This document shows positions 959 through 62,427 of a DNA stretch of 64,000 nucleotides, piece by piece. A program made the position numbers and the translations under genes. The DNA lies in IMG/VR virus record IMGVR_UViG_2857192945_000001, positions 7,598 to 71,597 of that record, one strand, 5' to 3'. The stretch is from a virus. Its lineage: Duplodnaviria > Caudoviricetes. The notes below the pieces were generated by a model. It saw only the letters and a program-made list of their open reading frames with translations. It made no database searches and was not told the DNA's origin. The stretch's first letter is position 1, and each line of letters begins with the position of its first letter.

Positions 959-1007
959 TGCAGTTAATTGCATTTTCAATTGCACAAGCAGGCCCCTCAA
1001 GTAAGAT
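959..1007 (+). promoter_or_regulatory. Palindrome followed by sigma70-like promoter
   Basis: Palindrome 959-972, TTGCAC 980-985, 16-nt spacer, TAAGAT 1002-1007; same geometry as 51678, 54798 and 59035. Confidence 0.6.
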
Positions 1008-1040
1008 CAAAATGAAGGGCTATCCGATACAAGGAGGTTA

Positions 1041-1925
1041 GTGGTGGCTGTGAATATCAAGGTGACCGGCAAGGCGAACACGACAGCCTGGACCGTTCTG
1101 AAAAAGCTCAACATTCCCGACGCCGATATCGAGTGGCTTCGCAAGTCCCCGCTCAAGGTCAACCTCATGTCGTCTGCGCTCCTGTTTCAGGTGCCGACTG
1201 TTGATCATTATGGGGTTGTCGCCACATATGACGTCAAGTTCGGCTTGATAGAACTGGCAAACCTTGCGAAGGGGAACCTGACCTCGGCCAAAATGTCTGT
1301 TCTGGCTCATCAAATGATGGTCGTGGTCGAACACATCAAAAGCAAGTACGGGGCTTATCTGGACACGTTGCCCCCTGCGCCCGAACAGTTGCCCGGAACT
1401 TTGGGTAAGCTGCCGCCAATCACCAAAACTCCGATGACCTTTTCGGAGGCGGTAAAACAGGCATCCGTAGCGACAATCGCCAGCGCTGCAATGCAGCATC
1501 CAGTTGTGGCGGCCCAGCAAGTTCCTAATGCGGGGACGCTCTGGCCGATGTTTGACATGGATAAGATCAAGACAGCGGATCTGGTGAAATTGCGCGATGC
1601 CACGCACATGTATCAACCGGTTCACGGATCGTCGCCGGGATCGAGATATTTCATGGTGGGTGCTAATTCGGATCTGAGGATTGCTGCTCGGCTAAAGAAG
1701 GGCCAGTTGTCTGTTCGCATAGAAGGCCCCAACTGGAGCCAGTACCAGCATCAGATACAGTCCGTCGGCTTTTCGAAACTATCGAAGGGTGATGGTTACG
1801 CCTCGGTTCACTTCGATGTTGGTGACGATATCAGTCTCGCCAACAAAACGCTGGGAGCCATTCTTACCGGTCTTGGCATCGGATTGGAGACACCGATACC
1901 GAACCTGGCTGTCATCAACAAATAA
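1041..1925 (+). CDS. Hypothetical phage protein (294 aa)
   Basis: Long ORF with AAGGAGG SD before GTG; no motif recognised. Confidence 0.75.
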   Translation: MVAVNIKVTGKANTTAWTVLKKLNIPDADIEWLRKSPLKVNLMSSALLFQVPTVDHYGVVATYDVKFGLIELANLAKGNLTSAKMSVLAHQMMVVVEHIKSKYGAYLDTLPPAPEQLPGTLGKLPPITKTPMTFSEAVKQASVATIASAAMQHPVVAAQQVPNAGTLWPMFDMDKIKTADLVKLRDATHMYQPVHGSSPGSRYFMVGANSDLRIAARLKKGQLSVRIEGPNWSQYQHQIQSVGFSKLSKGDGYASVHFDVGDDISLANKTLGAILTGLGIGLETPIPNLAVINK

Positions 1926-1929
1926 GAGG

Positions 1930-2145
1930 ATGATCATGCTCACTAGAGAGCAATTCGACGCGCTTGAACCCGGCGACGTTATCGAGACAGAATCACTGTT
2001 CCCCAGCCTCACCAAGGAGAAGGTGTCGTTTCATGTGACCGAAAGGACGTCTGACAAGGTGCAGTTCGTTCTGTCGTTTCTAGGCATCACGCTGGGCAAG
2101 TGGAGCTGCGTGAATTTCAAGGGGAAGCTGGTATGGGAGAAGTGA
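1930..2145 (+). CDS. Hypothetical protein
   Basis: AGAGGA SD, ATG 1930/1936, packed against neighbours. Confidence 0.6.
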   Translation: MIMLTREQFDALEPGDVIETESLFPSLTKEKVSFHVTERTSDKVQFVLSFLGITLGKWSCVNFKGKLVWEK

Positions 2146-2546
2146 GCTACACGAACCGCGTCTACGCGCTGGCCGATGCGCTCGGTATGGCGCTGGATGG
2201 TGAAGGCTACTCGGGCAAGCTGACCGGTGGGCGCATCAAGAAGTGGCGTATCCACGGTGAGGTATTCGAATTTAACCAGAAGGTTGTTTCTTCCGGGCTG
2301 ATCGGAAACCGTATCGCCATCATCGCCAAGGTGGGCGGAAACCTTGCGGCTCTGGTTGAAGTCGACCCAGAAGGCAAGATCACCGTTCATCTGCTCAATC
2401 TCGCTCACATGGAGCAGAGCCACAACTGGATCGAAAACTACAAGCCAAAAGACATAAAGAGCTGCCTCAACCTTCTCGGCAAGGCGGTCGTTAAGTCGTT
2501 CATGAAGATCGACAAGCACAAGTGGACGGAGCTCGCTGCCGTCTGA
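2133..2546 (+). CDS. Hypothetical protein
   Basis: ATG 2133 overlaps previous gene end; phage-like codon usage; followed by palindrome. Confidence 0.65.
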   Translation: MGEVSYTNRVYALADALGMALDGEGYSGKLTGGRIKKWRIHGEVFEFNQKVVSSGLIGNRIAIIAKVGGNLAALVEVDPEGKITVHLLNLAHMEQSHNWIENYKPKDIKSCLNLLGKAVVKSFMKIDKHKWTELAAV

Positions 2547-2575
2547 TTTGCAATTAACTGCACTGAAAGTACGAT

Positions 2576-6910: not shown

Positions 6911-8458
6911 ATGCTTGATGCGAAAGCATTCATCGCCTTGGAAACCACCCAGTCCGCTGTGATGCGGGCTGGTTGGCGTAAGGAGGCAGCGCGGCACATC
7001 AAGGCACTGGAGCCGATGCTCGCCCAAGGGCAGTGGGATTACGCCCACGAATACGTCGACAAGATCACGATGAACGGAGTTGTGGGAAACCACTTCGCTC
7101 GCCTTGAGGAGCTGGCCGTATCCTCGATCCTGTTCGGCGCCCAGAATGTCACACAGGATCTGAAAAAGACGAGCTTTGTGACAGGCTCCGCTGAAATCCC
7201 GTATGGGATGCAGCAAGCCCTCGAGCAGATGAATTTTATGATCGAGCGAGACGGGGCCGAGCTGCTGCGCAAAGAGCTGCATGCGATTATCCGCCAGGAA
7301 GAGATCGAGTTCCGGGAGGCCATCGCCAAGTCGGGCAAGCAGACGCTTTATGTCCATCGTCCATTGCTCAACGCAGTGCAATTGATTGCATGGGCAAGAT
7401 TGAATGGCTTCAAGACGGCTGTTCCGCCAGAGGAGATGCACGTTACCGTCTGCTACAGCAAAACGCCCATTGATTGGGGCGACCCTGGCTATTCTGCGCC
7501 TGGTGTGCGTGCGTCGGGCGGCAAGCGCACCATAGAGCGGTTCGGCAAGGCGATCGTTCTCACTTTTGAGAGCCAAGACTTGCATGACGACCACGAGCGC
7601 TTTGAAGACTCGGGAGCCTCGTGGGATCACCCGAGCTACAGACCACACGTCACGATCTCTTACGACGAAAACCAAGAAATCGACATTAGCAAGATCGAGC
7701 CGTTCACCTTCGACCTCGAGTTCGGGCCAGAGGTGTTCGCACCTGTGAAGGAGGATTGGTCATCCGGTATCAAGGAAATCCGCCTGAACAAGGCAGCAAA
7801 CCTCAGCCTTGCCGAGAAGCTGAACAACGCCGTGATGGGCAAAGGCGGCAAGATCATCGACATAGGCGCGAACCTCACGACAAGCCGGCTGGTGTCTCTC
7901 GGTTTCCTCGCAGAGGCGATCGACGCCGAGATTGACACGTACCAGGTGAATGAGGTGCTGGACGAGCTGACATGCCCTGTATGCCGTTACATGCATGGCA
8001 AGACGTTCCGCGTGGAGAATGAGTTCTCGCGCACCATGAACGTGCTATCGACCACCGACCCGAAAGAGCTGAAGGGACTTGCTCCGTGGCCACTTCAGAC
8101 AAAGGCCGGCCTCAAGAGTCTGTATGCAATGTCAATCGGTGACATGCAGAATGCAGGCTACGGCAGCCCGCCTTATCACCCCGGATGCCGCGGCTACCTC
8201 TCGCTCACTGGTACGGTGACCGAGGAGTTCCCGATCGGATCGTTGATGATCACGGAAGCAGCTCTCCCAGAGAAGCCGAAAGTGACTCCAAAGCCCGCAA
8301 AACCGGCAACTCCATGGCTCGAGAAACCCACTGGATGGCTCGACGTCATCAACAGGATCAAAGACCAGTCGAAGCGCGAGGCCGCTCTTCAGGCGTGGTC
8401 TGATGAGAACTACGATCTCGTTCGTGAACTAATCGTGGAAGCCGGTCTGTCGGTTTGA
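6911..8458 (+). CDS. Head morphogenesis (MuF/SPP1 gp7-like) protein with inserted 2H phosphoesterase (Acb1-like) domain
   Basis: C-terminal DELTCPVC...PPYHPGCR MuF motifs; central HVTVCYS (aa177) and YRPHVTISY (aa246) paired HxT motifs; follows portal. Confidence 0.8.
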   Translation: MLDAKAFIALETTQSAVMRAGWRKEAARHIKALEPMLAQGQWDYAHEYVDKITMNGVVGNHFARLEELAVSSILFGAQNVTQDLKKTSFVTGSAEIPYGMQQALEQMNFMIERDGAELLRKELHAIIRQEEIEFREAIAKSGKQTLYVHRPLLNAVQLIAWARLNGFKTAVPPEEMHVTVCYSKTPIDWGDPGYSAPGVRASGGKRTIERFGKAIVLTFESQDLHDDHERFEDSGASWDHPSYRPHVTISYDENQEIDISKIEPFTFDLEFGPEVFAPVKEDWSSGIKEIRLNKAANLSLAEKLNNAVMGKGGKIIDIGANLTTSRLVSLGFLAEAIDAEIDTYQVNEVLDELTCPVCRYMHGKTFRVENEFSRTMNVLSTTDPKELKGLAPWPLQTKAGLKSLYAMSIGDMQNAGYGSPPYHPGCRGYLSLTGTVTEEFPIGSLMITEAALPEKPKVTPKPAKPATPWLEKPTGWLDVINRIKDQSKREAALQAWSDENYDLVRELIVEAGLSV

Positions 8459-8487: not shown

Positions 8488-8524
8488 TGCAATTAATTGC
8501 AAACAGGAAACCCCTGCGTATTCT
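8488..8524 (+). promoter_or_regulatory. Palindrome overlapping -35 of a putative promoter
   Basis: TTGCAA 8497-8502 (right half of palindrome), 16 nt, TATTCT 8519-8524, upstream of protease gene. Confidence 0.45.
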
Positions 8525-9233: not shown

Positions 9234-10689
9234 GATCAAGGCCACCGAACTCGTGGGGACGGACGTGAACTTCGTATCAATGGTGAAGCGGGGAGCGAAC
9301 CGCATCCCGTTCCGTATCACGAAAGGGGATGAACCCATGGACCTGTACAAAATTGGCCGCATGCTTCTGAACAAGGGCGAGCCTGAAGTGCCGGAGGTCG
9401 TTGCGGCTATTGTGCAGCCAGGCGTCGACGCTACCGCTCTGGCTCAGACGTTCAAGGACGCCGGCCTCGACCCGCTGCAGTACACTCCGGTGGAGAAGGA
9501 TGGCGTCGTCGTCATCGCCAAGGAGAACGCGGACGCGGCAAAGGACACCGTCGTCATCAAGGCGAATGAAGGTGTGGCTTTTGTCGTATCGAATATGAAG
9601 AAGGCGTTCATGGACTACGATTACGAGTCCAAGGACTTCCTCACCGTCCTGAAGACCAACGGTTTCTACCCGACGCTTTGCGCCGCACACGATGCCTTTG
9701 CCACGACGGTATCCAATATCCTCTACGAAGCAACCAGCCCGTCTGAGGCTGCCCAGGCAATTTCCAAGGCTGCTGACGATTTCAAGACCTACGTCACGGC
9801 AATGGCTTCGTCACTGCCGGTGCAGGCTTTCAAGATGGAAGTCGCATTGGCCAAGGCTGATGCAGGCAAGAATGGTACTGGCGCCGGCTTCGAAGCTGGT
9901 AAGGGCACGGGAACCACGCCAAGCGCAACGGCTGACGACGCCGCGCACACTGCAATTAACAGCACTGGCGAACCGACCCACGGCAATCCCGACGAACAGC
10001 CTGTCGAAACTCACAAGTCTGACGCCGACAAGGGCAAAGACGAGATGAAGGACAAGGAGAAGGAAGAAGCCAAGAAGGACGAGCTCAAGGGCGTCCCTCA
10101 GCCGACCGGCCATGAGCCTGGTGACGCTGGTGGCTTCGCAGCCGCTCCTGCCGACACGCAGCGCGCCGTTTCCCACGCCTCTGCCGACGACAAGAAGATG
10201 AAGCTGAATGGTGGCACGACCGGCAGCTCCATCCCGGACGGCGACAGCGGGCTCGCACGCTTCGGCGGTGTGAAGAAGGAAGAAGAGCCAGTCCAGAAGA
10301 ACGAAGGCGACGACAAGATTGGTGGTGAGCAGCAGACGCTCCCTGAAGACCAGTCCGGTTCGGGCGCCCAGCAGGCTGCCGAGGTCAAGCCGACCGCAGC
10401 CGATCTCACGAAATCCGACAACGCCGACATTCTGGCGGCAATCGCTGCCCTCCAGAAGAGCGTCTCGGAACAGGTCAACGGCCTCCAGTCCCGCATGGAG
10501 AAGCAGGTCGGTGATCTGAACGCCCGAGTCGATCAGGTAGCCACCATGGCTCGCAAGACCGACGCGGCACTGAACGGCACCGTGTTCGCGGAAGATCCGG
10601 GCGACCGGGTTCGCACTTCCAAGTCGGAAGCTCATTCCGGTGAAATCCCACTTCTCGACACTGCCATCTCTCGCATCAGCGCCGCGTAA
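9220..10689 (+). CDS. Capsid scaffolding/assembly protein
   Basis: Acidic low-complexity middle, C-terminal coiled coil, immediately upstream of capsid gene. Confidence 0.6.
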   Translation: MPKLEIKATELVGTDVNFVSMVKRGANRIPFRITKGDEPMDLYKIGRMLLNKGEPEVPEVVAAIVQPGVDATALAQTFKDAGLDPLQYTPVEKDGVVVIAKENADAAKDTVVIKANEGVAFVVSNMKKAFMDYDYESKDFLTVLKTNGFYPTLCAAHDAFATTVSNILYEATSPSEAAQAISKAADDFKTYVTAMASSLPVQAFKMEVALAKADAGKNGTGAGFEAGKGTGTTPSATADDAAHTAINSTGEPTHGNPDEQPVETHKSDADKGKDEMKDKEKEEAKKDELKGVPQPTGHEPGDAGGFAAAPADTQRAVSHASADDKKMKLNGGTTGSSIPDGDSGLARFGGVKKEEEPVQKNEGDDKIGGEQQTLPEDQSGSGAQQAAEVKPTAADLTKSDNADILAAIAALQKSVSEQVNGLQSRMEKQVGDLNARVDQVATMARKTDAALNGTVFAEDPGDRVRTSKSEAHSGEIPLLDTAISRISAA

Positions 10690-11707: not shown

Positions 11708-11729
11708 GCGATATGCAATTAATTGCAAA

Positions 11730-12405: not shown

Positions 12406-12408
12406 TTC

Positions 12409-14156: not shown

Positions 14157-14238
14157 GTGCACCTGACGGTTCCCTGGAAGATTACAATTTTAGCGCTGTG
14201 TGCAATTAATTGCAGATCTTAGATTGATCGAGGCGACC

Positions 14239-16843: not shown

Positions 16844-16940
16844 GCCGGAGTCGCCGGCATACCACGCACACGCACACACGTTGACCCTCGCCTCTGATTT
16901 GCAATTAATTGCACACGTTCACAGAGGCGAGGATTGTGCA

Positions 16941-18748: not shown

Positions 18749-18780
18749 GGTATGCAATCAATTGCATAATGCGGCGAAGC

Positions 18781-20038: not shown

Positions 20039-20072
20039 TTAGTGCAATTAATTGCATGTTGCGGAGCGGCAT

Positions 20073-24800: not shown

Positions 24801-25156
24801 TGGCTTACCCAGTCTTTCAACCCCCTGGCTTGGTGCATGTCGACGTTGGATCGTCGACCAGCGTGAAGCCCCGCATCCGTCGCGCCCAATTCGGCGATGG
24901 CTATTCCCAGCGTTCTGGGGATGGCCTCAATGCGTTGGGTCGCAAGATTGAAATTAATTTCACAAACCTGGAGCTCAGTGAGGGGAATGCGATCGAGGCG
25001 TTCTTCGAGGAACGCGCCGGCTACCGCCCGTTCATCTGGACCTTTCCGCACGAGACCACGGCCCGCCAGTGGATCTGCACCGAATGGCGCAAGAGCCTGA
25101 CGGCGCCGCGGACCTATTCCGTGTCGGCAGCTTTCGAGGAGACGTTTGATCCATGA
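24800..25156 (+). CDS. Minor tail protein (lambda gpM-like)
   Basis: AQFGDGYSQR...DGLN, PFIWTFP, ends FEETFDP. Confidence 0.88.
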   Translation: MAYPVFQPPGLVHVDVGSSTSVKPRIRRAQFGDGYSQRSGDGLNALGRKIEINFTNLELSEGNAIEAFFEERAGYRPFIWTFPHETTARQWICTEWRKSLTAPRTYSVSAAFEETFDP

Positions 25157-34523: not shown

Positions 34524-34577
34524 TGCAATCAATTGCACTCGATGAGCTGTTTATGTAGTGCTGTGCAATCAATTGCA
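34524..34577. promoter_or_regulatory. Tandem pair of palindromes upstream of lysis cassette
   Basis: TGCAATCAATTGCA at 34524 and 34564, 40 bp apart. Confidence 0.7.
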
Positions 34578-36528: not shown

Positions 36529-36620
36529 GAATTTGTGCAATCAATTGCATTTTTGCTTGCTAATGCACGCATCTCAGTCATAGTCAGATGGAATAAGGCC
36601 AAGGAGGGCCGCCATCGACC

Positions 36621-37823: not shown

Positions 37824-37883
37824 TCCTGTTCGACTACCAAGCACCATAGTTGTGCAATCAATTGCAATGAAGGAAACAGACTG

Positions 37884-41754: not shown

Positions 41755-41791
41755 TGCAATTAATTGCATTATACCGACCAACAGCTAAGAT
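41755..41791 (+). promoter_or_regulatory. Palindrome overlapping -35 of a putative promoter
   Basis: TTGCAT 41764-41769, 16 nt, TAAGAT 41786-41791. Confidence 0.55.
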
Positions 41792-43915: not shown

Positions 43916-44002
43916 CCCGCTCAGCAGATAAGGCATTATGCAATTGATTGCACAATCATCCAGCTAACCCATTGTGAGACAACGGTTCTCAAGGAGACAA
44001 AG

Positions 44003-44827: not shown

Positions 44828-44883
44828 AATTGCAATTAATTGCAAATATCGGCTGTTTGAGTCGCGTCTCGCAGCTGACAACT

Positions 44884-44920
44884 GGCGAGTTGGTCATTTC
44901 AGGCTAACTCGCCCCTTTTT
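44884..44920 (+). terminator. Intrinsic terminator-like hairpin after SSB gene
   Basis: GGCGAGTTGGTC / GGCTAACTCGCC stem then CCTTTTT. Confidence 0.55.
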
Positions 44921-46653: not shown

Positions 46654-46681
46654 TTCTGCAATTAATTGCACGGAGACTGCA

Positions 46682-49709: not shown

Positions 49710-50272
49710 TGGCTATCAAATTGAAAGGATCTGCCAGGCTCACCAGTCTGGGCGTCGATCCCTCCACCACAGCGACCGGCCTCGTACTCCTACGGGAGTC
49801 GGGCACCCGCGTACCTGACGTTATCAAGGCGTGGGAGATCAAGCCAACGGGGTCAACGAACGGCCTCGAGCGTGCAATTAATATCACAACCGGCATCATG
49901 GAGATTATTCAGGAATACCACCCTGACAAGATTGTGGTCGAGGGCTTCTCACTGAATACGAAGAACGCCTCGAGCATCATACCCCTCGTGGAGCTGGGTA
50001 CGCTGATCCGCTTCTCGATGAAGCTGGACGGCCTGAAATGGTACGACCCGCGCGCGACTGAACTGAAAAAGTTCGTCTGCGGCAAAGGTACTGCGAACAA
50101 GGAGCAGGTGATGCTGCAGGTCTTCAAGCGGTGGGGTTTCGAGGCTCCGACGAACAATCTTGCTGACGGATACGGCCTCGCGTGCATGGGTCTTGCACAG
50201 GCTGGCAGGCTCCCCGGCATCACTCTCGACATGCAAAAAATCACGGGAGCAATGGCAATTCGCTCGAACTAA
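49709..50272 (+). CDS. RuvC-like Holliday junction resolvase
   Basis: LGVDPSTTATG, IVVEG, LKKFVCGKGTANKEQV, NNLADGYGLA. Confidence 0.85.
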   Translation: MAIKLKGSARLTSLGVDPSTTATGLVLLRESGTRVPDVIKAWEIKPTGSTNGLERAINITTGIMEIIQEYHPDKIVVEGFSLNTKNASSIIPLVELGTLIRFSMKLDGLKWYDPRATELKKFVCGKGTANKEQVMLQVFKRWGFEAPTNNLADGYGLACMGLAQAGRLPGITLDMQKITGAMAIRSN

Positions 50273-50344
50273 TCTTGCAATTAATTGCACAACAGTTAAG
50301 GTGTAACGATAACCACACATGAAAGGCCAAGGAGGGTCTAGGTA

Positions 50345-51490
50345 ATGAGCTCAGCCTCACTGTCGCTTCTGAAGGGTGCCAACAAAGGCGCTGTCGAAGC
50401 AGAGATTGAAACTGCAAAGCCGGCAGCCCAGGTCGAGCCGGAAGCAGCCGCCGAGGAAGAAGACGTTGTCGTTGACGTCGACGCCCTGAACGACTCGCAA
50501 CTCGACGCTCTGGTCGAGGAGAATGAGATCGAAGTTCCGGGTGAGTGGAAAGGCTGGCAAGCGGACAGCAAGCGAGCCTGGTTGAAGTCTCAGTTTGAGG
50601 ACGCGCCGGAGGGAGCCGAAGCAGAGGACAAGCCTGAGCCCGCCACCGAACCGGAAGCTCCGAAGGAAGAACCCAAGGCCAAGGCTGGTAAGACGGCCAA
50701 GGAAAAGAAGGAAGCCAAGGCCAAGACGCCGGCCAAGTCCAAGGAAGTGGCCACGTCGAACGCCAAGGCTGGCGAGATCATGGAGCCGGACATTTTGTCC
50801 GATCTGGTTCATGAGATCGAGAACCTGAAGGAAAAGGACGCTCGCGACCTTATCCCGGCTCTCTCCGAACAGACCGAACTCACGATGTTCCGCCTGGGCG
50901 GCGTCCTCTCGCTCATCCAGGCGAACAACTGGTTTGAGCCTTACGCTTCCTTCCGCGATTTTGTCGAGAAGGAGCACGGACTGGCCTACCGTAAGGCCAT
51001 GTATTGGGTCGGCATCTATAACTCTCTCTCCGCGGCCAAGGTCTCTTGGAACAAGGTGAAGGGCATCGGCTGGACCAAGCTCAAGGAAATCGCCCTCGTC
51101 ATCAACGAGGACAACCAGGATCAGTGGATCGAGATCGCATTGAACTCGAACACGCTCACCTTGATCGAGACTGTCAAGAAGCATCTCGCCAAGGACAAGC
51201 CTCAGTCTCTCGAGGATCAGTCCTCGAAGACCGTTACAACCAAGACCTTCAAGGTTCACGAAGACCAGAAAGCGACTATCGATGCAGCCATCGCCAAAGC
51301 CAAAGAGCAGAGTTCTACGACCGTTGACACGGTGGCTCTTGAATACATCTGCATTGACTTCCTTGGCGGTCAGACCCTTGAGCAGAAGCTGAAGGCGATG
51401 GGAATGGAAGCGGCCTTCGCAGTTCTCGAGAAAGCGTTCCCGGAAGCAAATATTACGGTTGATCTCGAAGAAGACGCCGACGCCGCCTGA
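50345..51490 (+). CDS. Putative DNA-binding protein; paralogue of 53438..53974
   Basis: Acidic N-terminus; SFRDFVEKEHGLAYRKAMY and IGWTKLKEIA block; C-terminal strand-helix-helix pattern. Confidence 0.6.
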   Translation: MSSASLSLLKGANKGAVEAEIETAKPAAQVEPEAAAEEEDVVVDVDALNDSQLDALVEENEIEVPGEWKGWQADSKRAWLKSQFEDAPEGAEAEDKPEPATEPEAPKEEPKAKAGKTAKEKKEAKAKTPAKSKEVATSNAKAGEIMEPDILSDLVHEIENLKEKDARDLIPALSEQTELTMFRLGGVLSLIQANNWFEPYASFRDFVEKEHGLAYRKAMYWVGIYNSLSAAKVSWNKVKGIGWTKLKEIALVINEDNQDQWIEIALNSNTLTLIETVKKHLAKDKPQSLEDQSSKTVTTKTFKVHEDQKATIDAAIAKAKEQSSTTVDTVALEYICIDFLGGQTLEQKLKAMGMEAAFAVLEKAFPEANITVDLEEDADAA

Positions 51491-51645: not shown

Positions 51646-51678
51646 GGCTCCGGGGAGAAATCTCCGGAGTCTTTTCTT
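51646..51678 (+). terminator. Intrinsic terminator
   Basis: GGCTCCGGGGA-GAAA-TCTCCGGAGTC stem then TTTTCTT, abutting palindrome 51678. Confidence 0.7.
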
Positions 51679-51775
51679 GCAATTAATTGCATTTTCTATT
51701 GCATACGCATCGGCATAAGTTACTGTCAAGTCAAGGGAAATTTCTCCCAAACATCACAACGCCATGGAGGGCAAG
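51678..51775 (+). promoter_or_regulatory. Composite expression cassette: palindrome, promoter, leader hairpin, extended SD
   Basis: TTGCAT 51699-51704, 16 nt, TACTGT 51721-51726, GGGAAATTTCTCCC, GCCATGGAGGGC 51761-51772. Confidence 0.65.
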
Positions 51776-52856: not shown

Positions 52857-52970
52857 AACAATAACCAAATTTTCGTCACAGATTGCAATTAATTGCAATT
52901 GCTCTTGCTTCAACCACGTTAAAACATGACGTTAAGGTAAGAAGTGGGTCTAGCCAAGGAGGGCGCAACT

Positions 52971-53330
52971 GTGCAATTAAATGTCGTGTTCACAGGACCT
53001 GCGATGAGGCAGAATGGCGAGTTGATCACGCGGGATAGTTTAAGGGCGGCATGCGTGTCCCTCGGGATCACGGTGCAGTCAAGCATCCGCTCGGATACAC
53101 ACCTGCTGGTTGCGAGTCGCAGAGACACTGTGAAAGCCAAGCACGCGCAGACACAAGGCATCGAGGTTCTGAGCTACCCATCCTTTCTCAACATATTCAT
53201 GCGGGACATAAAAATACCCGCGGGGGGAACGTATAATCCATTCACCGACAAGATATCCAATCTGGACGACGACTTACCTCTTCCCGCTTTCGTGAGCGGG
53301 GAAAAGCTCGCAGAGGTCGATATACTATGA
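52971..53330 (+). CDS. Stand-alone BRCT-domain protein
   Basis: VVFTG...TRDSL...LG..V.SSI..DTHLLVA...K.K.A...GIEVLSY matches the ligase-type BRCT pattern; GCCAAGGAGGGC SD before GTG 52971. Confidence 0.75.
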   Translation: MQLNVVFTGPAMRQNGELITRDSLRAACVSLGITVQSSIRSDTHLLVASRRDTVKAKHAQTQGIEVLSYPSFLNIFMRDIKIPAGGTYNPFTDKISNLDDDLPLPAFVSGEKLAEVDIL

Positions 53331-53437
53331 GTAACGGTGTGCATTTGATTGCAACGGCGATACTCGAACCAAGATCAACAAATTCGGTCCTGGCTCGTAT
53401 GCCGGTGCCGATGTTTAAGACGAGAGGCACTAAACTA

Positions 53438-53974
53438 ATGATTGATACGACAGCCTTGTCTAAGACGGAGGCGAGCAAGAAGCTTTTGAAAAGAGCTTAC
53501 AAACTCGCTGAAGACGTCGACAACAACCTGCTAGAGCTCAGCATCGTCTTGTGGGAACTGCAGGAAAACAACATCTACGACGTGAAGGAGTTTCACGAGC
53601 AGTCCGGGTTGGGACGGCGCAAAACCTACTATCTCATCGATATCGGAAAGGCTTTCTACAATCTGCCGGTTGACCATGATCGATTGAAAGCGATCGGGTG
53701 GACGAAACTAAAAAGCATTGCACCACACGTCACGGCAGAGAATTACAAAGAGAAGCTTCAACTGGCCGAACAGTACAAAGCCTCTGATCTCGACAAGGTG
53801 CTACGTGGGGAAGAAATAACAAAAGAGGAGAAGGTCCTACTATTCAGATTCTCACCACAAGAAAAGAAGCGACTGGAGAAACTGCTACTGAAGTATGGAG
53901 CCTCAAAAACAAACAATGGCCTGATAAACAAGGAACAGGCTCTGATGAAGATCGTGGAGCACCTCGGATACTGA
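53438..53974 (+). CDS. Putative DNA-binding protein; paralogue of 50345..51490
   Basis: SGLGRRKTYYLIDI and IGWTKLKSIA; C-terminal LLFRFSPQEKKRLEKLL...KEQALMKIV ribbon-helix-helix-like; start could be further upstream (ORF from 53327). Confidence 0.6.
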   Translation: MIDTTALSKTEASKKLLKRAYKLAEDVDNNLLELSIVLWELQENNIYDVKEFHEQSGLGRRKTYYLIDIGKAFYNLPVDHDRLKAIGWTKLKSIAPHVTAENYKEKLQLAEQYKASDLDKVLRGEEITKEEKVLLFRFSPQEKKRLEKLLLKYGASKTNNGLINKEQALMKIVEHLGY

Positions 53975-54080
53975 AGACCTGCTAGAAAAGCATCCCATTA
54001 AATTGTGATGCCTTTCTTCGAAGCCTTCTCCGATCACTCCATAATGCAATTAATTGCAAAACAGGATGAAAGGTGACGAT

Positions 54081-54726: not shown

Positions 54727-54783
54727 ATGTTGCGCTGCTGAGAAAATGTAGCGTGCCTGAGAAAATGTTGCGTCGTTGAGAAA
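54727..54783 (+). repeat. Three tandem 19-bp direct repeats ATGTWGCGNNNNTGAGAAA
   Basis: ATGTTGCGCTGCTGAGAAA, ATGTAGCGTGCCTGAGAAA, ATGTTGCGTCGTTGAGAAA head-to-tail in the largest non-coding region. Confidence 0.8.
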
Positions 54784-54797
54784 ATCAGAAATTCTCG

Positions 54798-54892
54798 TGC
54801 AATTAATTGCAATTCTTCTTGCATCGGGTACGTACCAAGATAAAGTACGGGCAAGGGGAATTTCCCCAAGACCATTAAGCCAAGGAGGGCAG
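54798..54892 (+). promoter_or_regulatory. Composite expression cassette: palindrome, promoter, leader hairpin, extended SD
   Basis: TTGCAT 54819-54824, 16 nt, TAAAGT 54841-54846, GGGGAATTTCCCC, GCCAAGGAGGGC 54879-54890. Confidence 0.65.
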
Positions 54893-55159: not shown

Positions 55160-55191
55160 GTTTGCAATTAATTGCATAAGGATTTTGCGTC

Positions 55192-57748: not shown

Positions 57749-57808
57749 GTTGTGCAATCAATTGCAAACGTCAGGCCCTAAGCCAAGATACGATTGAAGG
57801 AGAAAGAC

Positions 57809-59034: not shown

Positions 59035-59133
59035 TGCAATTAATTGCATTTCTTATTGCATCAAGTATGCTCTCAGTTAAGTTCAAGGCATAGGGAGCAA
59101 TCAACACTCCCCACGCCAAGGAGGGCAAGACAG
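59035..59133 (+). promoter_or_regulatory. Composite expression cassette: palindrome, promoter, leader hairpin, extended SD
   Basis: TTGCAT 59056-59061, 16 nt, TAAGTT 59078-59083, GGGAG-N9-CTCCC, GCCAAGGAGGGC 59115-59126. Confidence 0.65.
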
Positions 59134-59379: not shown

Positions 59380-59406
59380 GTTTGCAATCAATTGCACTGG
59401 AGGGAC

Positions 59407-59676: not shown

Positions 59677-59708
59677 ATTGTGCAATCAATTGCACTGCCA
59701 AGGAGGGC

Positions 59709-59995: not shown

Positions 59996-60274
59996 ATGAG
60001 TGAGCAGAAAGTCGAATACGCGGCAGAACTGCCAGTCGGTATCGAGGGCAAAGCCCTGAAGCTGGGAGAGAACCAGCTTATCGGCCTTCACACGACCCTC
60101 GGTTCGCTGACCGCCCCCGAAGGCAAGTTCGACATAGCCCTGCACATCAGCGGCATGTGCGTGTGGATCAAGAGCCCGAAGGGAGACTGGTATCAGGTCA
60201 ACCATCGCGAGCTCTGGGAAGCCGCGGTCGCCAAGATCATCGAACACGAGAAGGAGGTCGACCAGCATGGCTAA
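59996..60274 (+). CDS. Small hypothetical protein
   Basis: ATG 59996, packed against neighbours. Confidence 0.6.
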   Translation: MSEQKVEYAAELPVGIEGKALKLGENQLIGLHTTLGSLTAPEGKFDIALHISGMCVWIKSPKGDWYQVNHRELWEAAVAKIIEHEKEVDQHG

Positions 60275-61148
60275 GAATTTCGAAGGTATCCGCACCGCCC
60301 TAGTCGCAATGCCCGCAGATGCAACCGACGAAATGATTGATGCGGCCCTTGCTGTAGATTGGGACAACGAGGACGAACGCGCCACCGTGCACAACATCTG
60401 GCACGCCATGACGGCCAAGCTCCCGTCTTCCCCCGCGCCTGCCGCTACAGATACGGGTCTGGAGACGGTTGCCAAGCTCGGCGGGATCATGGGCGTTATG
60501 CTCCTGCGCCACATTGAAAACCTTCGTCCCGAAGCGCAGGCCAAATACAAGGATGAGCTTGTCCGACGCTCGCAGGCTGAGGAGCTATTGGCGACGGAAC
60601 GGGCGGAGAAGGAGCGATGGCAGAATATCGCCAATGAGCGTCACCTAACAATCCGCGAACTCATCACCGAGCGAAACGATGCGCTGGAGCAAGTACATAC
60701 CCTGAGAGCCGACAACGCGGCGCTGACTGCGCAGATCAAGGAGTTGGAGCAAAGGTTAGCTGACAAGTTTTCGTTTACGTCAGACGACGATGCATTGACC
60801 GTCTTGGAACGATACGGCCACAAGGAAACAGGAAACGGCATCATCAAAGTCGATATGCGCTCTCTTGATGATATGTGCCGTGCAGCAGTCGCTTACCTTT
60901 GCGCTGAGTGGGATTTCGTATTCCAGGACGAAGTAGAGCTTAATCGAGAAGCCCTCGAAGCCAAGCTCGCTGCAGCTGAAAAGGACCGACTCCCCGAAGG
61001 TCACGTCATCATCGAACAGGCCGACATGTTGGATGCTCAAGGGCGTGTGAGTCAGACGGTCCAGGTCACCGCCACAGGGGAAGAATACGAGCGGATCGTT
61101 CATGTGCGCGAAGCATATGGGGAGGACGACAATGAGTACGCACGCTGA
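60267..61148 (+). CDS. Mosaic coiled-coil protein (Ead/Ea22-like style)
   Basis: AAGGAGG SD; ATDEMIDAA...IWHAM, heptad segments ADNAALTAQIKELE and ALEAKLAAAEK. Confidence 0.6.
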   Translation: MAKNFEGIRTALVAMPADATDEMIDAALAVDWDNEDERATVHNIWHAMTAKLPSSPAPAATDTGLETVAKLGGIMGVMLLRHIENLRPEAQAKYKDELVRRSQAEELLATERAEKERWQNIANERHLTIRELITERNDALEQVHTLRADNAALTAQIKELEQRLADKFSFTSDDDALTVLERYGHKETGNGIIKVDMRSLDDMCRAAVAYLCAEWDFVFQDEVELNREALEAKLAAAEKDRLPEGHVIIEQADMLDAQGRVSQTVQVTATGEEYERIVHVREAYGEDDNEYAR

Positions 61149-61326
61149 GGTCCAGATAGCTCAGATCACAGTGAAGCTCGAAGACGGGTCCTATGGGGTC
61201 GTCGTCCTTGGTCAGGATCGGCTCAACATGCTTATGCCTATGATAGAGGCACTGTCCGAGGGACCGGTCAAAATCCTCCGTGTGCCAGGCATTCAGGAAG
61301 TTCCCGTCGAGGAGGCGCTCAAATAA
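61132..61326 (+). CDS. Small hypothetical protein
   Basis: GGAGG SD, ATG 61132, TAATG coupling. Confidence 0.55.
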   Translation: MSTHAEVQIAQITVKLEDGSYGVVVLGQDRLNMLMPMIEALSEGPVKILRVPGIQEVPVEEALK

Positions 61327-61736
61327 TGCCCTTCTTCGGACTGACCAAGAAATCCAAGCAGGTAGGCATCCAGACCTATGCGAAGGCGATCAGGCTTCCC
61401 GAACCGTTGCGGGAGGTCGAGCTCGAATACCTCAGTGTGCGCGATCACTACATGCAAACCGTAGGGATCAAGGCACAGTACGAGGAGGCACTCGCACAGG
61501 CCAAGGCCGAGGGGCGCAAGGCAGATGCGGAGCTTTTCGGCAAGAAGATCTACGCGATGCAATCGAAGCTCACGGACAAGCGCCAGCGGGTGAAGGAAAT
61601 AGGCGAGAAGGCATACGCCGAGGCTGTCTACTTGGTTGCCACGGCCATGCTGCCAAAGGAAATCATGATGGCACTCGAGCAAGAGGCCGACAATTTGTTG
61701 GGGAGGCCGAGACATGAGCTCTCACGCGCAGACTGA
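61326..61736 (+). CDS. Hypothetical coiled-coil protein
   Basis: GGAGG SD, 136 aa. Confidence 0.6.
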   Translation: MPFFGLTKKSKQVGIQTYAKAIRLPEPLREVELEYLSVRDHYMQTVGIKAQYEEALAQAKAEGRKADAELFGKKIYAMQSKLTDKRQRVKEIGEKAYAEAVYLVATAMLPKEIMMALEQEADNLLGRPRHELSRAD

Positions 61737-62118
61737 GCTGAAAGAGCAGGTGCCGGCACACTGCTGCCCGTACTGCAAGAAGGAAGTCGGATATCTGGGG
61801 CGGGCACTCGCCTGGCTGTTCGGCACCAGCTTCCACGGATGCGACCAGTCGAACGTGAGAGTCGTCAATGAGCCGCCCATGGATAGGCTTCTGGAGCTGA
61901 ACCAGGCATTCAGGCCGATCTATAAGGCAGCCCACGCCCAGACAGTCCGCAACGACACGATCGAGGAGATCGCCCAGTGGCACGAGCGTGAGGCGAAGCG
62001 GCTCGAGGGGATCGAAATCCAGAATAAGCGCATCCGTCACAAGATCGCTCATCACCAGATCAGCGCTCGTCAGATCCGGGCGATGAAGAAGCTCCCCGAC
62101 GAGGCATGGAGGGACTGA
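61714..62118 (+). CDS. Hypothetical protein with CxxC...HxC motif
   Basis: GGAGG SD; HCCPYC...FHGC. Confidence 0.55.
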   Translation: MSSHAQTELKEQVPAHCCPYCKKEVGYLGRALAWLFGTSFHGCDQSNVRVVNEPPMDRLLELNQAFRPIYKAAHAQTVRNDTIEEIAQWHEREAKRLEGIEIQNKRIRHKIAHHQISARQIRAMKKLPDEAWRD

Positions 62119-62366
62119 TGGTAAGTCCACCATACATCATGCTCCTCGGAACAGTTGTCCACGACGATCTAGGCCAGAAATGGATCTACATGGGCACGAT
62201 CAAAACCAAGACGGGCGGTAGCTGGCAGCACAAGTTCATGCGAGCCATGGAAGCCAAGTGGCCGAAGATGCCTCACAGCTATGACGCCGTTCAGGTGAAG
62301 ACGATCATCGCCAAGTTCCCGGACGCCGCCGAGCATATCCAGCGTCCGTATATGATCATCAGCTAA
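62118..62366 (+). CDS. Small hypothetical protein
   Basis: GGAGG SD, TGATG coupling; palindrome directly after stop. Confidence 0.6.
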   Translation: MVSPPYIMLLGTVVHDDLGQKWIYMGTIKTKTGGSWQHKFMRAMEAKWPKMPHSYDAVQVKTIIAKFPDAAEHIQRPYMIIS

Positions 62367-62427
62367 TGCAATTAATTGCAATATGACGGTCATCAGTCAA
62401 AGTTCAAGGGAAGCCAAGGAGGGCAGA

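What the first reader, a model, noticed from the sequence alone, without database searches (positions are those of the whole stretch)
959..62380. Genome-wide array of a 14-bp palindrome (TGCAATTAATTGCA): candidate undescribed phage DNA-binding-site system
Seen: 33 copies with 0-1 mismatch (19 perfect), about one per 2 kb, in structural, lysis, replication and early modules alike, in an otherwise GC-rich genome. A given 14-mer is expected about 0.0002 times in 64 kb under uniform base composition. 29 copies are intergenic and 17 start within 0-7 nt after a stop codon. The asymmetric variants occur in both orientations (TGCAATCAATTGCA and TGCAATTGATTGCA; TGCAGTTAATTGCA and TGCAATTAACTGCA), which points to recognition of double-stranded DNA by a dimer and not of an RNA hairpin. 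Known analogues: mycobacteriophage stoperators are similarly numerous but asymmetric and oriented, while parS/matS-type sites are palindromic and organise chromosomes. Inference: one protein coats the whole phage genome, acting as a global transcriptional switch or roadblock, or organising or protecting the DNA.
Basis: partly seen in the sequence, partly recalled or inferred. Interest (0 to 1): 0.92.

Follow-up and report, generated by a model that had tools for sequence, protein, structure and literature searches.

The report
Phage-wide palindromic protein-docking site array
This phage repeats one 14-base mirror-symmetric DNA word about every 2 kb, mostly between genes, as do many related phages of very different bacteria; it is most likely the docking site of a phage-made DNA-binding protein that controls the phage's genes, and I found no published description of it.

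Summary
TGCAATTAATTGCA occurs 33 times (19 perfect) in the window against 0.03 in shuffles, and 36 times in the 71.6-kb record. 32 of those 36 lie in the 6.7% of the record that is non-coding.

It is not peculiar to this genome. TGCAA-N4-TTGCA arrays occur in all 8 named relatives checked (Rhodobacter RcZahn, Rhizobium, Stenotrophomonas DLP5, Vibrio SIO-2, Aeromonas phages) and in uncultured relatives, with local "dialects".

Half-site changes are almost never compensated: 135 one-sided against 1 compensated. This fits double-stranded DNA read by a dimer, not a hairpin.

The best candidate reader is the product of window 50345-51490 (phrog_17202, no Pfam family).
- It is present in every array-bearing genome tested.
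- Its fold resembles ParB/KorB DNA-binding domains only modestly.
- It has a site upstream of its own gene in 23 of 36 loci, against 19% of all genes.

Five window copies sit exactly 7 nt upstream of sigma-70-type promoters.

No binding or expression data exist, so function is inferred. This scan has found the same array before on other DNA. I found no publication describing it; the SIO-2 and VHS1 papers could not be read.

The parts
959..972 (.). palindrome copy (1 mismatch), 7 nt upstream of a promoter-like -35
980..1007 (+). predicted sigma-70-type promoter TTGCAC-N16-TAAGAT
   Evidence: pattern only
2549..2562 (.). palindrome copy (1 mismatch), 2 nt after a stop codon
4976..4989 (.). perfect copy between DNA polymerase and portal genes
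7377..7390 (.). copy (1 mismatch) inside the MuF-like gene, read as V-Q-L-I-A; kept in G002
8488..8501 (.). perfect copy; its right half could serve as a -35 (TATTCT 16 nt on)
9951..9964 (.). degenerate copy (2 mismatches) inside a gene
11714..11727 (.). perfect copy 6 nt after the major capsid gene, followed by a hairpin plus T-run
14201..14214 (.). perfect intergenic copy
16900..16913 (.). perfect intergenic copy
18753..18766 (.). copy (1 mismatch) 4 nt after a stop codon
19033..19046 (.). perfect copy 3 nt after a stop codon; position kept in G001, G002, RcZahn and TM16
20043..20056 (.). perfect copy 16 nt before the tape-measure gene start
24949..24962 (.). degenerate but symmetric copy (2 mismatches) inside a gene
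25990..26003 (.). degenerate copy (2 mismatches) inside a gene
28319..28332 (.). perfect copy inside the 2093-aa tail gene, written with rare codons (CAA TTA ATT)
30134..30147 (.). copy (1 mismatch) inside the 2093-aa tail gene
34524..34537 (.). first of two copies (1 mismatch) upstream of the endolysin gene
34564..34577 (.). second copy (1 mismatch), 17 nt before the endolysin gene start
36536..36549 (.). copy (1 mismatch) 7 nt upstream of a promoter-like -35, ahead of the AAA ATPase gene
36557..36584 (+). predicted promoter TTGCTA-N16-CATAGT
   Evidence: pattern only
37853..37866 (.). copy (1 mismatch) 17 nt before a gene start
39781..39794 (.). copy (1 mismatch) inside the HTH_36 / replication-initiator-like gene; identical 14-mer at the homologous place in G002
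41755..41768 (.). perfect copy; right half TTGCAT, then N16, then TAAGAT
43939..43952 (.). intergenic copy (1 mismatch)
44831..44844 (.). perfect copy 3 nt after a stop codon, followed by a terminator-like hairpin
44884..44913 (+). terminator-like hairpin plus T-run
46657..46670 (.). perfect copy 3 nt after a stop codon and 11 nt before the next start
49873..49886 (.). degenerate copy (2 mismatches) inside a gene
50276..50289 (.). perfect copy 55 nt upstream of the candidate reader gene; the best-conserved site position among relatives
50345..51490 (+). candidate reader gene (381 aa, phrog_17202): acidic N-terminus, Lys/Ala-rich linker, helical HTH domain (about residues 150-290), C-terminal helical domain
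51646..51671 (+). terminator-like hairpin directly before the copy at 51678
51678..51691 (.). perfect copy 7 nt upstream of a promoter-like -35
51699..51726 (+). predicted promoter TTGCAT-N16-TACTGT
   Evidence: pattern only
52884..52897 (.). perfect copy with TTGCTT 7 nt downstream, but no -10 match by my rule
53327..53974 (+). shorter paralogue of the candidate reader (215 aa, phrog_17202)
53340..53353 (.). degenerate copy (2 mismatches) at the start of the paralogue gene
54045..54058 (.). perfect intergenic copy after the paralogue gene
54798..54811 (.). perfect copy 7 nt upstream of a promoter-like -35
54819..54846 (+). predicted promoter TTGCAT-N16-TAAAGT
   Evidence: pattern only
55163..55176 (.). 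perfect copy 3 nt after a stop codon and 15 nt before the next start
57753..57766 (.). copy (1 mismatch); right half, then N16, then CAAGAT
59035..59048 (.). perfect copy 7 nt upstream of a promoter-like -35
59056..59083 (+). predicted promoter TTGCAT-N16-TAAGTT
   Evidence: pattern only
59383..59396 (.). copy (1 mismatch) 3 nt after a stop codon and 10 nt before the next start
59681..59694 (.). copy (1 mismatch) 4 nt after a stop codon and 17 nt before the next start
62367..62380 (.). perfect copy directly abutting a stop codon; right half, then N16, then CAAAGT

Best explanation
The 14-bp palindromes are double-stranded DNA docking sites for a symmetric dimer of a phage-encoded protein. The most likely reader is the phrog_17202 protein encoded at window 50345-51490, possibly acting with its shorter paralogue at 53327-53974. 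Its central helical helix-turn-helix domain resembles the DNA-binding domain of ParB/KorB proteins, but it lacks their CTP-binding N-terminal domain.

Proposed working (inferred, not shown):
1. The protein is made from the replication-module operon.
2. It binds the site in front of its own gene, so it regulates itself.
3. It binds the sites that sit a fixed 7-8 nt upstream of, or overlap, the -35 of host-type promoters at the heads of the early and replication modules, and so modulates them. Repression is more likely than activation, because those promoters already have good -35 and -10 elements.
4. It occupies the remaining gene-junction and in-gene sites about every 2 kb, where it may act as a transcriptional insulator or roadblock along a genome transcribed entirely in one direction.

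My estimates for the steps:
- The sites are protein sites on duplex DNA: about 0.85.
- The main role is transcriptional: about 0.5.
For: Real and non-random:
- 33 copies against 0.03 in shuffles.
- 32 of 36 record copies lie in the 4,801 non-coding bases of 71,597.
- 31 of 52 intergenic gaps of at least 14 bp carry a copy.

Self-contained site:
- No conserved flank beyond 14-16 bp in 5 genomes.

Duplex DNA, not a hairpin:
- In 274 sites of 7 genomes, the five outer symmetric pairs show 135 one-sided changes against 1 compensated change.
- The commonest variant destroys the predicted hairpin (0 kcal/mol against -2.5).
- In other lineages positions 6 and 9 change together (TGCAAT..ATTGCA to TGCAAC..GTTGCA), although a 2-nt loop could not let them pair. 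The central two bases vary freely there.

Phage-encoded reader:
- The array occurs in phages of Rhodobacter, Rhizobium, Stenotrophomonas, Vibrio and Aeromonas.
- In a 4.5-Mb Hyphomicrobium MAG that carries a relative, 29 of 31 exact TGCAA-N4-TTGCA copies lie in one 150-kb stretch.

This protein family:
- Homologues are present in all 7 other genomes compared.
- Among 50,697 phage records, homologues occur in only 46, all from the same host groups. All 8 of those 46 that I checked carry arrays.
- Two AF2 models align residues about 160-290 to ParB-parS (Z 8.0 and 7.0), Spo0J (7.0 and 6.3) and KorB-operator (6.2 and 5.4).
- A site lies within 200 bp upstream of the homologue's start in 23 of 36 non-duplicate loci, against 197 of 1,013 for all called genes in those loci.
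- That junction is the best-conserved site position, present in 5 of 7 relatives.
- Lineages with changed outer half-sites have changes in the otherwise near-invariant Y-R-K-A start of the predicted recognition helix: GGCAAT with D-R-T-I, TCCAAT with R-S-K-A, GGAAAT with R-R-K-A.

Transcriptional link:
- A palindrome, exactly 7 nt, a -35, 16 nt, then a -10 occurs 6 times in the record, against about 0.03 per offset in random controls. G002 and G007 have 5 each at offset 8.
- The same composite recurs with other dialects and a TTGACAAAC -35 in L192 (8 of 15 sites) and L196 (3 of 5).
Against: - There is no binding, expression or genetic experiment. No RNA data were available.
- The fold matches are middling. 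The tool itself warns that Z under 8 (under about 13 for helical proteins) can be a common arrangement. Rubisco factor Raf1 scores as high. Foldseek found nothing at E <= 0.001. No Pfam family recurs in 38 members.
- The helix and dialect covariation has exceptions. L196 (TGACAT) and the TGCAAC lineages keep Y-R-K-A, and L208 differs only slightly. Only about 3 independent lineages support it.
- 13 of 36 loci, and SIO-2, show no site upstream of the gene.
- The statistics ignore relatedness.
- Most sites (about 25 of 39 by the loose definition) have no recognisable promoter nearby. Several lie 10-17 nt from the next start codon.
- Spacing is more even than random in 6 of 8 genomes, and copies are written into long genes with rare codons. 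Both fit an organising role at least as well.
- Other DNA-binding candidates exist in relatives: a 301-aa ParB_N protein and an XRE-type HTH protein. The part of this phage missing from the record was not seen.
- Promoters are pattern matches only. The standard E. coli-type scan found none on the + strand in 44-64 kb.
Confidence: 0.5

Rival explanations
1. The sites are docking or loading points for a DNA-organising system and not primarily a transcription factor. Possible roles are a centromere-like or condensing array for keeping the phage as a plasmid prophage, for compacting or positioning replicating DNA, or for preparing it for packaging. This would be like ParB-parS, Noc-NBS, RacA-ram or MatP-matS. 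The reader could be the same phrog_17202 protein or the ParB_N protein of relatives.
For: - Spacing is more even than random in 6 of 8 genomes (CV 0.49-0.70 against about 0.96). In this record it is also more even than a random choice among intergenic gaps.
- Copies are placed inside long genes with very rare codons. TTA is 1.6% of Leu codons, and 4 of 7 QLI tripeptides lie in motif-like sequence.
- Two in-gene copies are kept in G002.
- The best fold matches are partition-protein DNA-binding domains.
- DLP5 is reported to persist as a phagemid, and DLP3/DLP5 have two ParB-domain proteins (PMC7326821, passages read).
- Relatives encode a ParB_N protein next to the terminase genes.
Against: - 32 of 36 copies are intergenic, though organiser sites need not avoid genes.
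- The fixed 7-8 nt offset to promoters, kept across dialects, is hard to explain without contact to the transcription machinery.
- ParB_N was not found in SIO-2, which has 26 sites, nor in this record.
- The candidate reader lacks the CTP-binding domain on which ParB/KorB clamp sliding depends (PMC11790492, passages read).
- No ParA-type partner was seen among the window proteins I scanned; about 40 of the 93 called genes were scanned.
Confidence: 0.25
2. The sites are read by a conserved host protein, for example a CRP/FNR-type dimer (whose sites also have a 5-N4-5 layout) or a nucleoid-associated protein that the phage exploits.
For: - The layout of a 5-bp half-site, 4 bp, then a 5-bp half-site is that of FNR-type sites (recalled, not tested).
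- Some copies overlap a -35 position.
- The core TGCAA..TTGCA is kept across hosts of two classes.
Against: - In the one host-scale genome tested, only 2 of 31 exact copies lie outside the phage-bearing stretch of 4.5 Mb, so that host has no regulon using the site.
- Lineage-specific dialects (GGCAAT, TCCAAT, TGACAT, GGAAAT) occur among related phages. This fits a reader that travels with the phage.
- Alphaproteobacterial regulators cannot explain the Vibrio, Stenotrophomonas and Aeromonas phages.
Confidence: 0.07
3. The element acts as a nucleic-acid hairpin: an RNA processing, stability or terminator signal in the polycistronic transcripts, or a cruciform in DNA.
For: - It is a palindrome placed right after stop codons: 16 of 33 window copies lie within 0-7 nt.
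- All genes are on one strand.
- The 16-mer form could fold at -5.2 kcal/mol.
Against: - 135 one-sided changes against 1 compensated change in 274 sites.
- The 14-mer hairpin is only -2.5 kcal/mol, and the commonest variant does not fold.
- No T-run follows the sites as a rule. True terminator-like hairpins are separate elements next to some sites.
- Variants occur in both orientations.
- Positions 6 and 9 stay symmetric across lineages, though they could not pair in a 2-nt loop.
Confidence: 0.03
4. The palindromes are exchange or insertion points: shared linker sequences at which gene cassettes recombine, or targets or footprints of a mobile element or nuclease.
For: - Single small genes are bracketed by copies (18753/19033; 59035/59383/59681).
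- The Cluster O paper reports deletions between its repeats (PMC4351075, passages read).
Against: - 14 bp is short for homologous exchange.
- Site positions are conserved between relatives at many junctions and not only at variable ones.
- The fixed promoter geometry and the copy upstream of one specific gene are not explained.
- I identified no transposase or homing nuclease tied to the sites; I did not scan all proteins.
Confidence: 0.05

Closest known systems
KorB and its OB operators on IncP-1 plasmid RK2 (PMC11790492; abstract and passages read)
   Same: A short palindromic operator is dispersed over a mobile genome. It is read by a dimer with a ParB-type helix-turn-helix domain and gives global control of promoters, some adjacent to the site and some distant.
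   Different: The candidate reader has no ParB N-terminal CTP-binding domain, on which KorB's clamp sliding and long-range silencing depend. There are about three times more sites (36-48 per genome; that RK2 has 12 OB sites is recalled). The site sequence is different. No KorA-like partner was identified. The host element is a phage, not a plasmid.
Stoperators of mycobacteriophage L5 and other Cluster A phages (gp71 repressor). Properties are recalled, and also as summarised in PMC4351075 (passage read).
   Same: Dozens of copies of one 13-14 bp site lie in short intergenic spaces all along a phage genome, including between co-transcribed genes where there is no room for a promoter. The proposed role there is silencing by blocking transcription.
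   Different: Stoperators are asymmetric and oriented with transcription. These sites are palindromic and occur in both orientations. Here the lifestyle is unclear and the candidate reader is unrelated.
17-bp dyad repeats of Cluster O mycobacteriophages (TGTTCGG-N3-CCGAACA, more than 30 per genome; PMC4351075, abstract and passages read)
   Same: A dyad-symmetric repeat occurs throughout a siphophage genome, many copies intergenic. The authors propose that it binds a dimeric regulator. Its function and reader are unknown.
   Different: The sequence and layout differ (7-N3-7 against 6-N2-6), and so does the phage lineage and host phylum. About a third of the Cluster O copies are inside genes, against 4 of 36 here. 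No reader candidate or promoter geometry was reported in the passages I read.
Chromosome-organising site arrays: ParB-parS, Noc-NBS, RacA-ram, MatP-matS (recalled)
   Same: 14-16 bp palindromes are scattered over a replicon and read by dimeric HTH proteins. ParB-parS is among the best fold matches (6s6h: Z 8.0 and 7.0).
   Different: Those sites are often inside genes and have no fixed relation to promoters. Here 32 of 36 are intergenic and a subset sits at a fixed offset from promoters.

Membership tests
   No Pfam family was found for window 50345-51490 or 53327-53974. PF02195 is absent from the 38 homologues scanned and from this record. A separate ParB_N protein exists in relatives.
ParB/KorB family | The DNA-binding domain has the ParB/KorB helix-turn-helix fold | tested here: inconclusive
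   VIA-align gave 6s6h Z 8.0/7.0, 1vz0 Z 7.0/6.3, 1r71 Z 6.2/5.4 and 8qa8 Z 5.2/4.5 on two models. Raf1 scores equally well. Foldseek found nothing at E <= 0.001. The PDB sequence search found nothing relevant.
ParB/KorB family | The cognate site is a 13-16 bp palindrome | tested here: met
   The core is a 14-bp perfect palindrome. It extends to 16 bp (GTGCAATTAATTGCAC) in G002 and G007.
ParB/KorB family | A ParA-type ATPase partner, or a KorA-like co-repressor | tested here: inconclusive
   None was seen among the window proteins scanned. Not all 93 genes were scanned, and the record is 72% complete.
Cluster A mycobacteriophage stoperators | Asymmetric site, oriented with the direction of transcription | tested here: not met
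   The site is a perfect palindrome. Asymmetric variants occur in both orientations, for example 9 against 8 in G002.
Cluster A mycobacteriophage stoperators | Many copies in short intergenic spaces of both early and late operons | tested here: met
   32 of 36 copies are intergenic, and they occur in the structural, lysis, replication and early regions.
Cluster A mycobacteriophage stoperators | Bound by the phage immunity repressor, silencing the prophage | not testable with these tools
   No repressor was identified and the lifestyle is unknown. IMG/VR labels the record a provirus. DLP5 is reported as a phagemid.
Cluster O-type dyad repeats | More than 30 copies per genome of one dyad-symmetric repeat, function unknown | tested here: met
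   36 copies in 71.6 kb, and 46-48 in near-complete relatives. The sequence and layout differ, and no homology between the two systems was tested.
RNA hairpin elements (REP-like, terminators, RNase sites) | Stem pairing kept by compensatory changes | tested here: not met
   135 one-sided changes against 1 compensated change at the five outer pairs in 274 sites.
Host regulator operator (Mur/Irr/RirA/CtrA, CRP/FNR type) | The site also occurs as a regulon in the host chromosome | tested here: not met
   In G011, 29 of 31 copies lie in one 150-kb stretch of a 4.5-Mb MAG. Only one informative host-scale genome was available. G012 has 11 scattered copies against 5 in the control.

The most novel reading that the evidence does not exclude
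A large clade of roughly 80-110 kb siphophages of Alpha- and Gammaproteobacteria shares a previously undescribed 'genome punctuation' system. A phage protein with a ParB/KorB-like DNA-binding domain but no CTPase clamp docks every 2 kb or so on a palindrome. The palindrome's sequence co-evolves with the protein in lineage-specific dialects. The protein has two roles: it is the master switch of the early promoters, through a fixed 7-8 nt geometry, and it is an insulator or organiser of a genome transcribed entirely in one direction. This would be a phage analogue of plasmid KorB control that arose without the sliding-clamp mechanism.
Probability: 0.3. Interest if true: 0.8.

Novelty: new variant of a known kind. 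Interest (0 to 1): 0.66.

Why it matters
If true, one uncharacterised protein family (phrog_17202) and one short DNA word would explain how a widespread group of large siphophages organises expression of about 100 kb of same-strand genes. The group includes candidates for phage therapy against Stenotrophomonas and Vibrio.

It would give three things:
- a ready handle for annotating transcription units in these genomes;
- a natural set of orthogonal protein/operator pairs (the dialects) for synthetic biology;
- a test case for how a ParB/KorB-type DNA-binding domain works without the CTP clamp.

It is directly testable, because cultured members exist (RcZahn, DLP3/DLP5, SIO-2-like Vibrio phages, Rhizobium phages).

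Tried and rejected
Searches that led nowhere:
- Megablast of 49 kb of the window against 50,697 phage records found no match. Relatives were found only at protein level.
- Sequencing runs: no RNA holder was listed, so I did not use read laying. Expression, transcript starts and transcript ends are untested.
- Foldseek against the PDB gave no match at E <= 0.001 for either model.
- The PDB sequence search gave only E of about 0.9 to DnaK.
- Pfam gave nothing for the candidate reader or its paralogue, and no family recurs among 38 homologues.
- The Atlas gave only low-score leads to DUF3102, DUF1016_N and HTH_ParB clusters. I do not count these as evidence.

Literature:
- The exact 14-mer is in 0 papers.
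- Variants and the 10-mer core hit 38 papers; the 15 listed are all unrelated.
- 'SIO-2 + Vibrio phage + intergenic' gave 2 unrelated papers.
- The L338C name gave 3 papers, none on repeats (listing only).
- One search was wasted by a too-broad term.
- The RcZahn paper (PMC8601537), DLP3 paper (PMC7326821), PG288 paper (PMC10835289) and PMC7012835 have 0 occurrences of 'palindrom', and none mentions such a repeat in the passages returned.
- The SIO-2 paper (PMC3338904) and the VHS1 paper (PMC3318803) are not held, so I cannot exclude a description there. I asked for no supplements.

Ideas considered and dropped:
1. The palindrome as a sigma-70 -10 or extended -10. No nAnnnT can be read in it (my reading of the sequence).
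2. The half-site as a mimic of the phage's own -35 (TTGCAT). Relatives with other dialects keep the same geometry with a TTGACA -35.
3. The candidate reader as a sigma factor. Only noise-level matches were found.
4. 'Class B' promoters that use the right half-site as the -35. 9 of 39 sites have a -10-like hexamer 16-18 nt on, but I estimate 3-4 by chance (my arithmetic, not a tool result), and one falls inside a terminator hairpin. I give this little weight.
5. Orientation bias of the TCAA/TTGA centre as a sign of strand-specific function: 8:2 here, 10:0 in RcZahn, 4:4 in G001. It may simply follow the A>T skew of the coding strand. I did not test this.
6. ParB_N as the universal reader. It is absent from SIO-2 at the sensitivity used.

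The E. coli-type promoter scan found 0 + strand promoters in 44-64 kb, so all promoters named here rest on my looser pattern.

Full report
**1. The observation**

TGCAATTAATTGCA with up to one mismatch occurs 33 times in the window, at exactly the coordinates given, and 19 copies are perfect. 100 dinucleotide-preserving shuffles gave a mean of 0.03 and never more than 1.

The window is bases 7598-71597 of a 71,597-base IMG/VR record, classed as a provirus and estimated 72% complete. The whole record holds 36 copies; the reversed-pattern control gives 0.

I called genes myself from third-position G+C periodicity: 93 genes, all on the + strand, covering 93.3% of the record. On these calls:
- 32 of the 36 copies (29 of 33 in the window) lie in the 4,801 non-coding bases.
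- 31 of the 52 intergenic gaps of at least 14 bp carry a copy.
- 16 window copies begin 0-7 nt after a stop codon.

Nothing beyond 14-16 bp is conserved around the copies in five genomes.

**2. What kind of genome this is**

PHROGs identify a DNA polymerase (2702-4969), portal, MuF-like head protein, major capsid protein (10730-11707), tape measure protein (20073-24800) and endolysin (34595-35743).

Megablast finds no phage relative. The capsid protein is 75.8% identical to that of Rhodobacter phage RcZahn, 62-65% to Rhizobium phages RHph_TM16 and Y1_11, about 54% to Stenotrophomonas phages DLP3/DLP5, and 44-48% to SIO-2-like Vibrio phages.

These are 80-101 kb siphophages. DLP5 is reported to persist as a phagemid, and DLP3/DLP5 carry two ParB-domain proteins (PMC7326821, passages read).

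**3. The array is a hallmark of a clade**

A scan of IMG/VR for the exact 14-mer found contigs with many copies. Counted over whole records with up to one mismatch:

| Record | Copies | Length |
|---|---|---|
| G001 | 35 | 71.8 kb |
| G002 | 48 | 91.8 kb |
| G003 | 18 | 33.5 kb |
| G004 | 27 | 50.4 kb |
| G005 | 9 | 18.2 kb |
| G007 | 46 | 95.8 kb |

Four other records that had matched held only 1-5 copies (G006 5, G008 1, G009 2, G010 2). Controls were 0 throughout.

Named phages, with up to two mismatches: RcZahn 21, DLP5 35, SIO-2 26, Y1_11 14, TM16 7.

Phages with only a distant homologue of the candidate reader carry the same core with changed inner positions:
- Aeromonas phage HJ05 has 16 exact TGCAAC-NN-GTTGCA.
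- Rhizobium phages L338C and RHph_I4 have 47 and 45 exact TGCAA-N4-TTGCA, with TGCAAC half-sites in all the copies listed.

In 51 uncultured loci that encode a homologue, further dialects appear:
- TGCAGT (L169)
- GGCAAT (L204, L205)
- TCCAAT (L201)
- TGACAT (L196)
- GGAAAT / GAAATTAATTTC (L192)
- TGCAAG (L199)
- an odd-spaced CATAGTA-N-TACTATG (L208)

In several loci no repeat could be assigned.

**4. Duplex DNA or hairpin**

I took 274 sites from seven genomes and looked at the five outer symmetric pairs. They show 135 one-sided changes (14 of which would be G-U on the + strand) against 1 compensated change. G2/C13 never varies.

The RNA hairpin is weak at -2.5 kcal/mol. The common C3-to-A variant, present 17 times in G002, does not fold.

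Across lineages, positions 6 and 9 change together (T..A to C..G), although a 2-nt loop could not let them pair. The two central bases are free in L338C.

This is the pattern of two half-sites read by a symmetric dimer on duplex DNA.

**5. Host or phage reader**

The hosts span two proteobacterial classes, which excludes alphaproteobacterial regulators as the general reader.

In a 4.5-Mb Hyphomicrobium MAG that carries a relative, 29 of 31 exact core matches lie on one contig between 113 and 264 kb. Only 2 lie elsewhere, and both have atypical centres. A second MAG was uninformative: 11 scattered copies against 5 in the control.

**6. The candidate reader**

A local tblastn of G002 proteins against seven genomes showed which non-structural proteins are shared by all. 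Among them is the 381-aa product of window 50345-51490 and, in the closer relatives, a shorter paralogue (window 53327-53974).

Both proteins match phrog_17202, of unknown function, and no Pfam family.

In the phage collection, homologues occur in 46 of 50,697 records: 34 Vibrio, 6 Rhizobium, 4 Stenotrophomonas, 1 Rhodobacter and 1 Aeromonas. All 8 of those that I checked carry arrays.

The protein has three parts:
- an acidic N-terminus;
- a Lys/Ala/Glu-rich linker;
- two confidently modelled helical domains, at about residues 150-290 and 300-365.

An aligner that compares the model with every representative PDB chain placed these among its top ten of 48,161 chains for residues about 160-290:
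- ParB bound to parS (6s6h: Z 8.0, 117 aligned)
- Spo0J (1vz0: Z 7.0)
- the KorB DNA-binding domain on its operator (1r71: Z 6.2, 107 of 114 residues)

A second model of the C-terminal 242 residues reproduced this, with Z 7.0, 6.3 and 5.4.

These Z values are middling. The Rubisco factor Raf1 scores as high, and Foldseek and sequence searches found nothing. I therefore treat the fold similarity as suggestive only.

The protein has no ParB N-terminal domain. A separate 301-aa ParB_N protein and an XRE-type HTH protein exist in G002. ParB_N was not found in SIO-2 or in this record.

**7. Three links between this protein and the site**

(a) *A site in front of its own gene.* A perfect copy lies 55 nt upstream of the gene here. 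Copies lie upstream of the homologue in G001, G002 (two), G007 (two), RcZahn and DLP5; in DLP5 it is the only perfect TTAA-centred copy in the genome. That junction is the best-conserved site position among relatives, at 5 of 7.

(b) *The wider sample.* In 36 non-duplicate uncultured loci with at least 4 sites, 23 have a site within 200 bp upstream of the homologue's first start codon. The figure for all called + strand genes in the same loci is 197 of 1,013. The binomial p is 7e-9, not corrected for relatedness.

(c) *Helix and dialect.* The start of the predicted recognition helix (A-Y-R-K-A-M-Y) keeps R216 in all lineages that have TGCA outer half-sites. It is changed in three lineages with other outer half-sites:
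- D-R-T-I with GGCAAT
- R-S-K-A with TCCAAT
- R-R-K-A with GGAAAT

There are exceptions. TGACAT (L196) and the TGCAAC lineages keep Y-R-K-A, and L208 has Y-R-K-V.

**8. Relation to transcription signals**

In six record copies (five in the window: 959, 36536, 51678, 54798, 59035) the palindrome is followed after exactly 7 nt by TTGCAx, a 16-nt spacer and a -10-like hexamer. Random positions give about 0.03 per offset. G002 and G007 each have 5 at offset 8, and G001 has 4 at offsets 7-9.

These composites head the early small-gene clusters, the replication module (AAA ATPase gene) and two other gene blocks.

In relatives with other dialects the same geometry recurs with a canonical TTGACAAAC -35: 8 of 15 sites in L192 and 3 of 5 in L196. 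The geometry is therefore ancient and independent of the half-site sequence. By my arithmetic it places the dimer centre near -48 to -50.

Because these promoters have good core elements, I infer repression rather than activation. This is not shown.

Other copies lie 10-17 nt before the next start codon, with no room for a promoter, or next to terminator-like hairpins (44884-44913; 51646-51671; and after the capsid gene).

**9. Features that point beyond promoters**

- With the looser core definition, spacing is more even than random in 6 of 8 genomes (CV 0.49-0.70 against about 0.96, P <= 0.0065) but not in G001 or G007. In this record it is also more even than a random choice among intergenic gaps.
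- Copies inside genes are read as x-Q-L-I-A/S with rare codons (CAA 12.5%, TTA 1.6%, ATT 20.6% of their families). 4 of the 7 QLI tripeptides of the proteome lie in motif-like sequence.
- Two in-gene copies are retained in G002 despite low protein identity.

These features fit selection for coverage of the whole genome, either as insulators or roadblocks or as an organising array.

**10. Comparison with what is known**

The system works most like KorB and its OB operators on RK2. But KorB's long-range action needs its CTP-dependent clamp (PMC11790492, abstract and passages read), which this protein lacks.

It resembles Cluster A stoperators in number and placement, but those are asymmetric and oriented.

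It resembles the 17-bp dyad repeats of Cluster O mycobacteriophages, whose function and reader are unknown (PMC4351075, abstract and passages read).

I found no description of the present array. The searches and their limits are listed under Tried and rejected. The SIO-2 and VHS1 genome papers could not be read.

This scan's own earlier notes report the same kind of array on at least six other windows, with similar conclusions. I reached the ParB/KorB-like fold result before reading those notes. I treat them as leads, not as support.

**11. Verdict**

The reading as a duplex-DNA site for a dimer is well supported. A phage-encoded reader is likely, and the phrog_17202 protein is the best candidate. 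The function (global transcriptional control with self-regulation, perhaps combined with genome organisation) is inferred and untested. I rate it as a new variant of a known kind of system: a dispersed operator array on a mobile genome.

Noticed in passing
window 6911-8458: The MuF-like head protein has an inserted segment (residues about 156-284) that matches phrog_755 'RNA ligase' (E 2e-24), between head-morphogenesis-like parts.
   Followed up: partly
window 2702-4969: A family-A-type DNA polymerase gene sits between the terminase region and the portal gene, inside the otherwise structural left arm. RcZahn has the same order (gene 15 before portal gene 16).
   Followed up: partly
window 54342-54785: This is the largest non-coding stretch (330 bp by my calls). 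It is followed by 2.5 tandem copies of a 19-bp unit (54738-54785) just before the palindrome and promoter at 54798. It could be an origin or a packaging region.
   Followed up: partly
window, many gene starts (e.g. 36600-36615, 50325-50340, 59115-59130): An unusually long and uniform ribosome-binding context, CCAAGGAGGG, recurs before many genes.
   Followed up: no
window 31-942, and genome bases before the window: There is a dual-specificity phosphatase-like protein (PF22784, E 9e-7). Relatives carry two PTP-type phosphatases and a pyruvate phosphate dikinase-like gene between the terminase and polymerase genes (RcZahn annotation).
   Followed up: no
window 58503-59030: An HD-domain protein (PF13328 HD_4, E 4e-15) lies among the early small genes.
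   Followed up: no
L192 (about 12,400-20,000) and L196: A strongly conserved promoter box, TTGACAAAC(G), is repeated up to 18 times in 21 kb of a relative, mostly 8-9 nt after that phage's own palindrome dialect.
   Followed up: partly
G011 contig C4, 113-264 kb: In a Hyphomicrobium MAG, 23 palindromes lie at 113-170 kb and 6 more at 229-264 kb of a 310-kb contig. This could be an integrated relative, two phage segments, or a mis-join. Other homologue-bearing MAG contigs are stand-alone pieces of 88-96 kb.
   Followed up: no
L168 (IMG/VR contig of 92 kb): One relative has about 30 copies in 21 kb, roughly three times the usual density.
   Followed up: no
L135:5362-6264 (-) in G002: Relatives encode a 301-aa ParB_N-domain protein just upstream of the terminase genes, plus an XRE-type HTH protein, a RapZ-C-like protein and DUF488/DUF5983 proteins. 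This is in the part of the genome missing from this record.
   Followed up: partly
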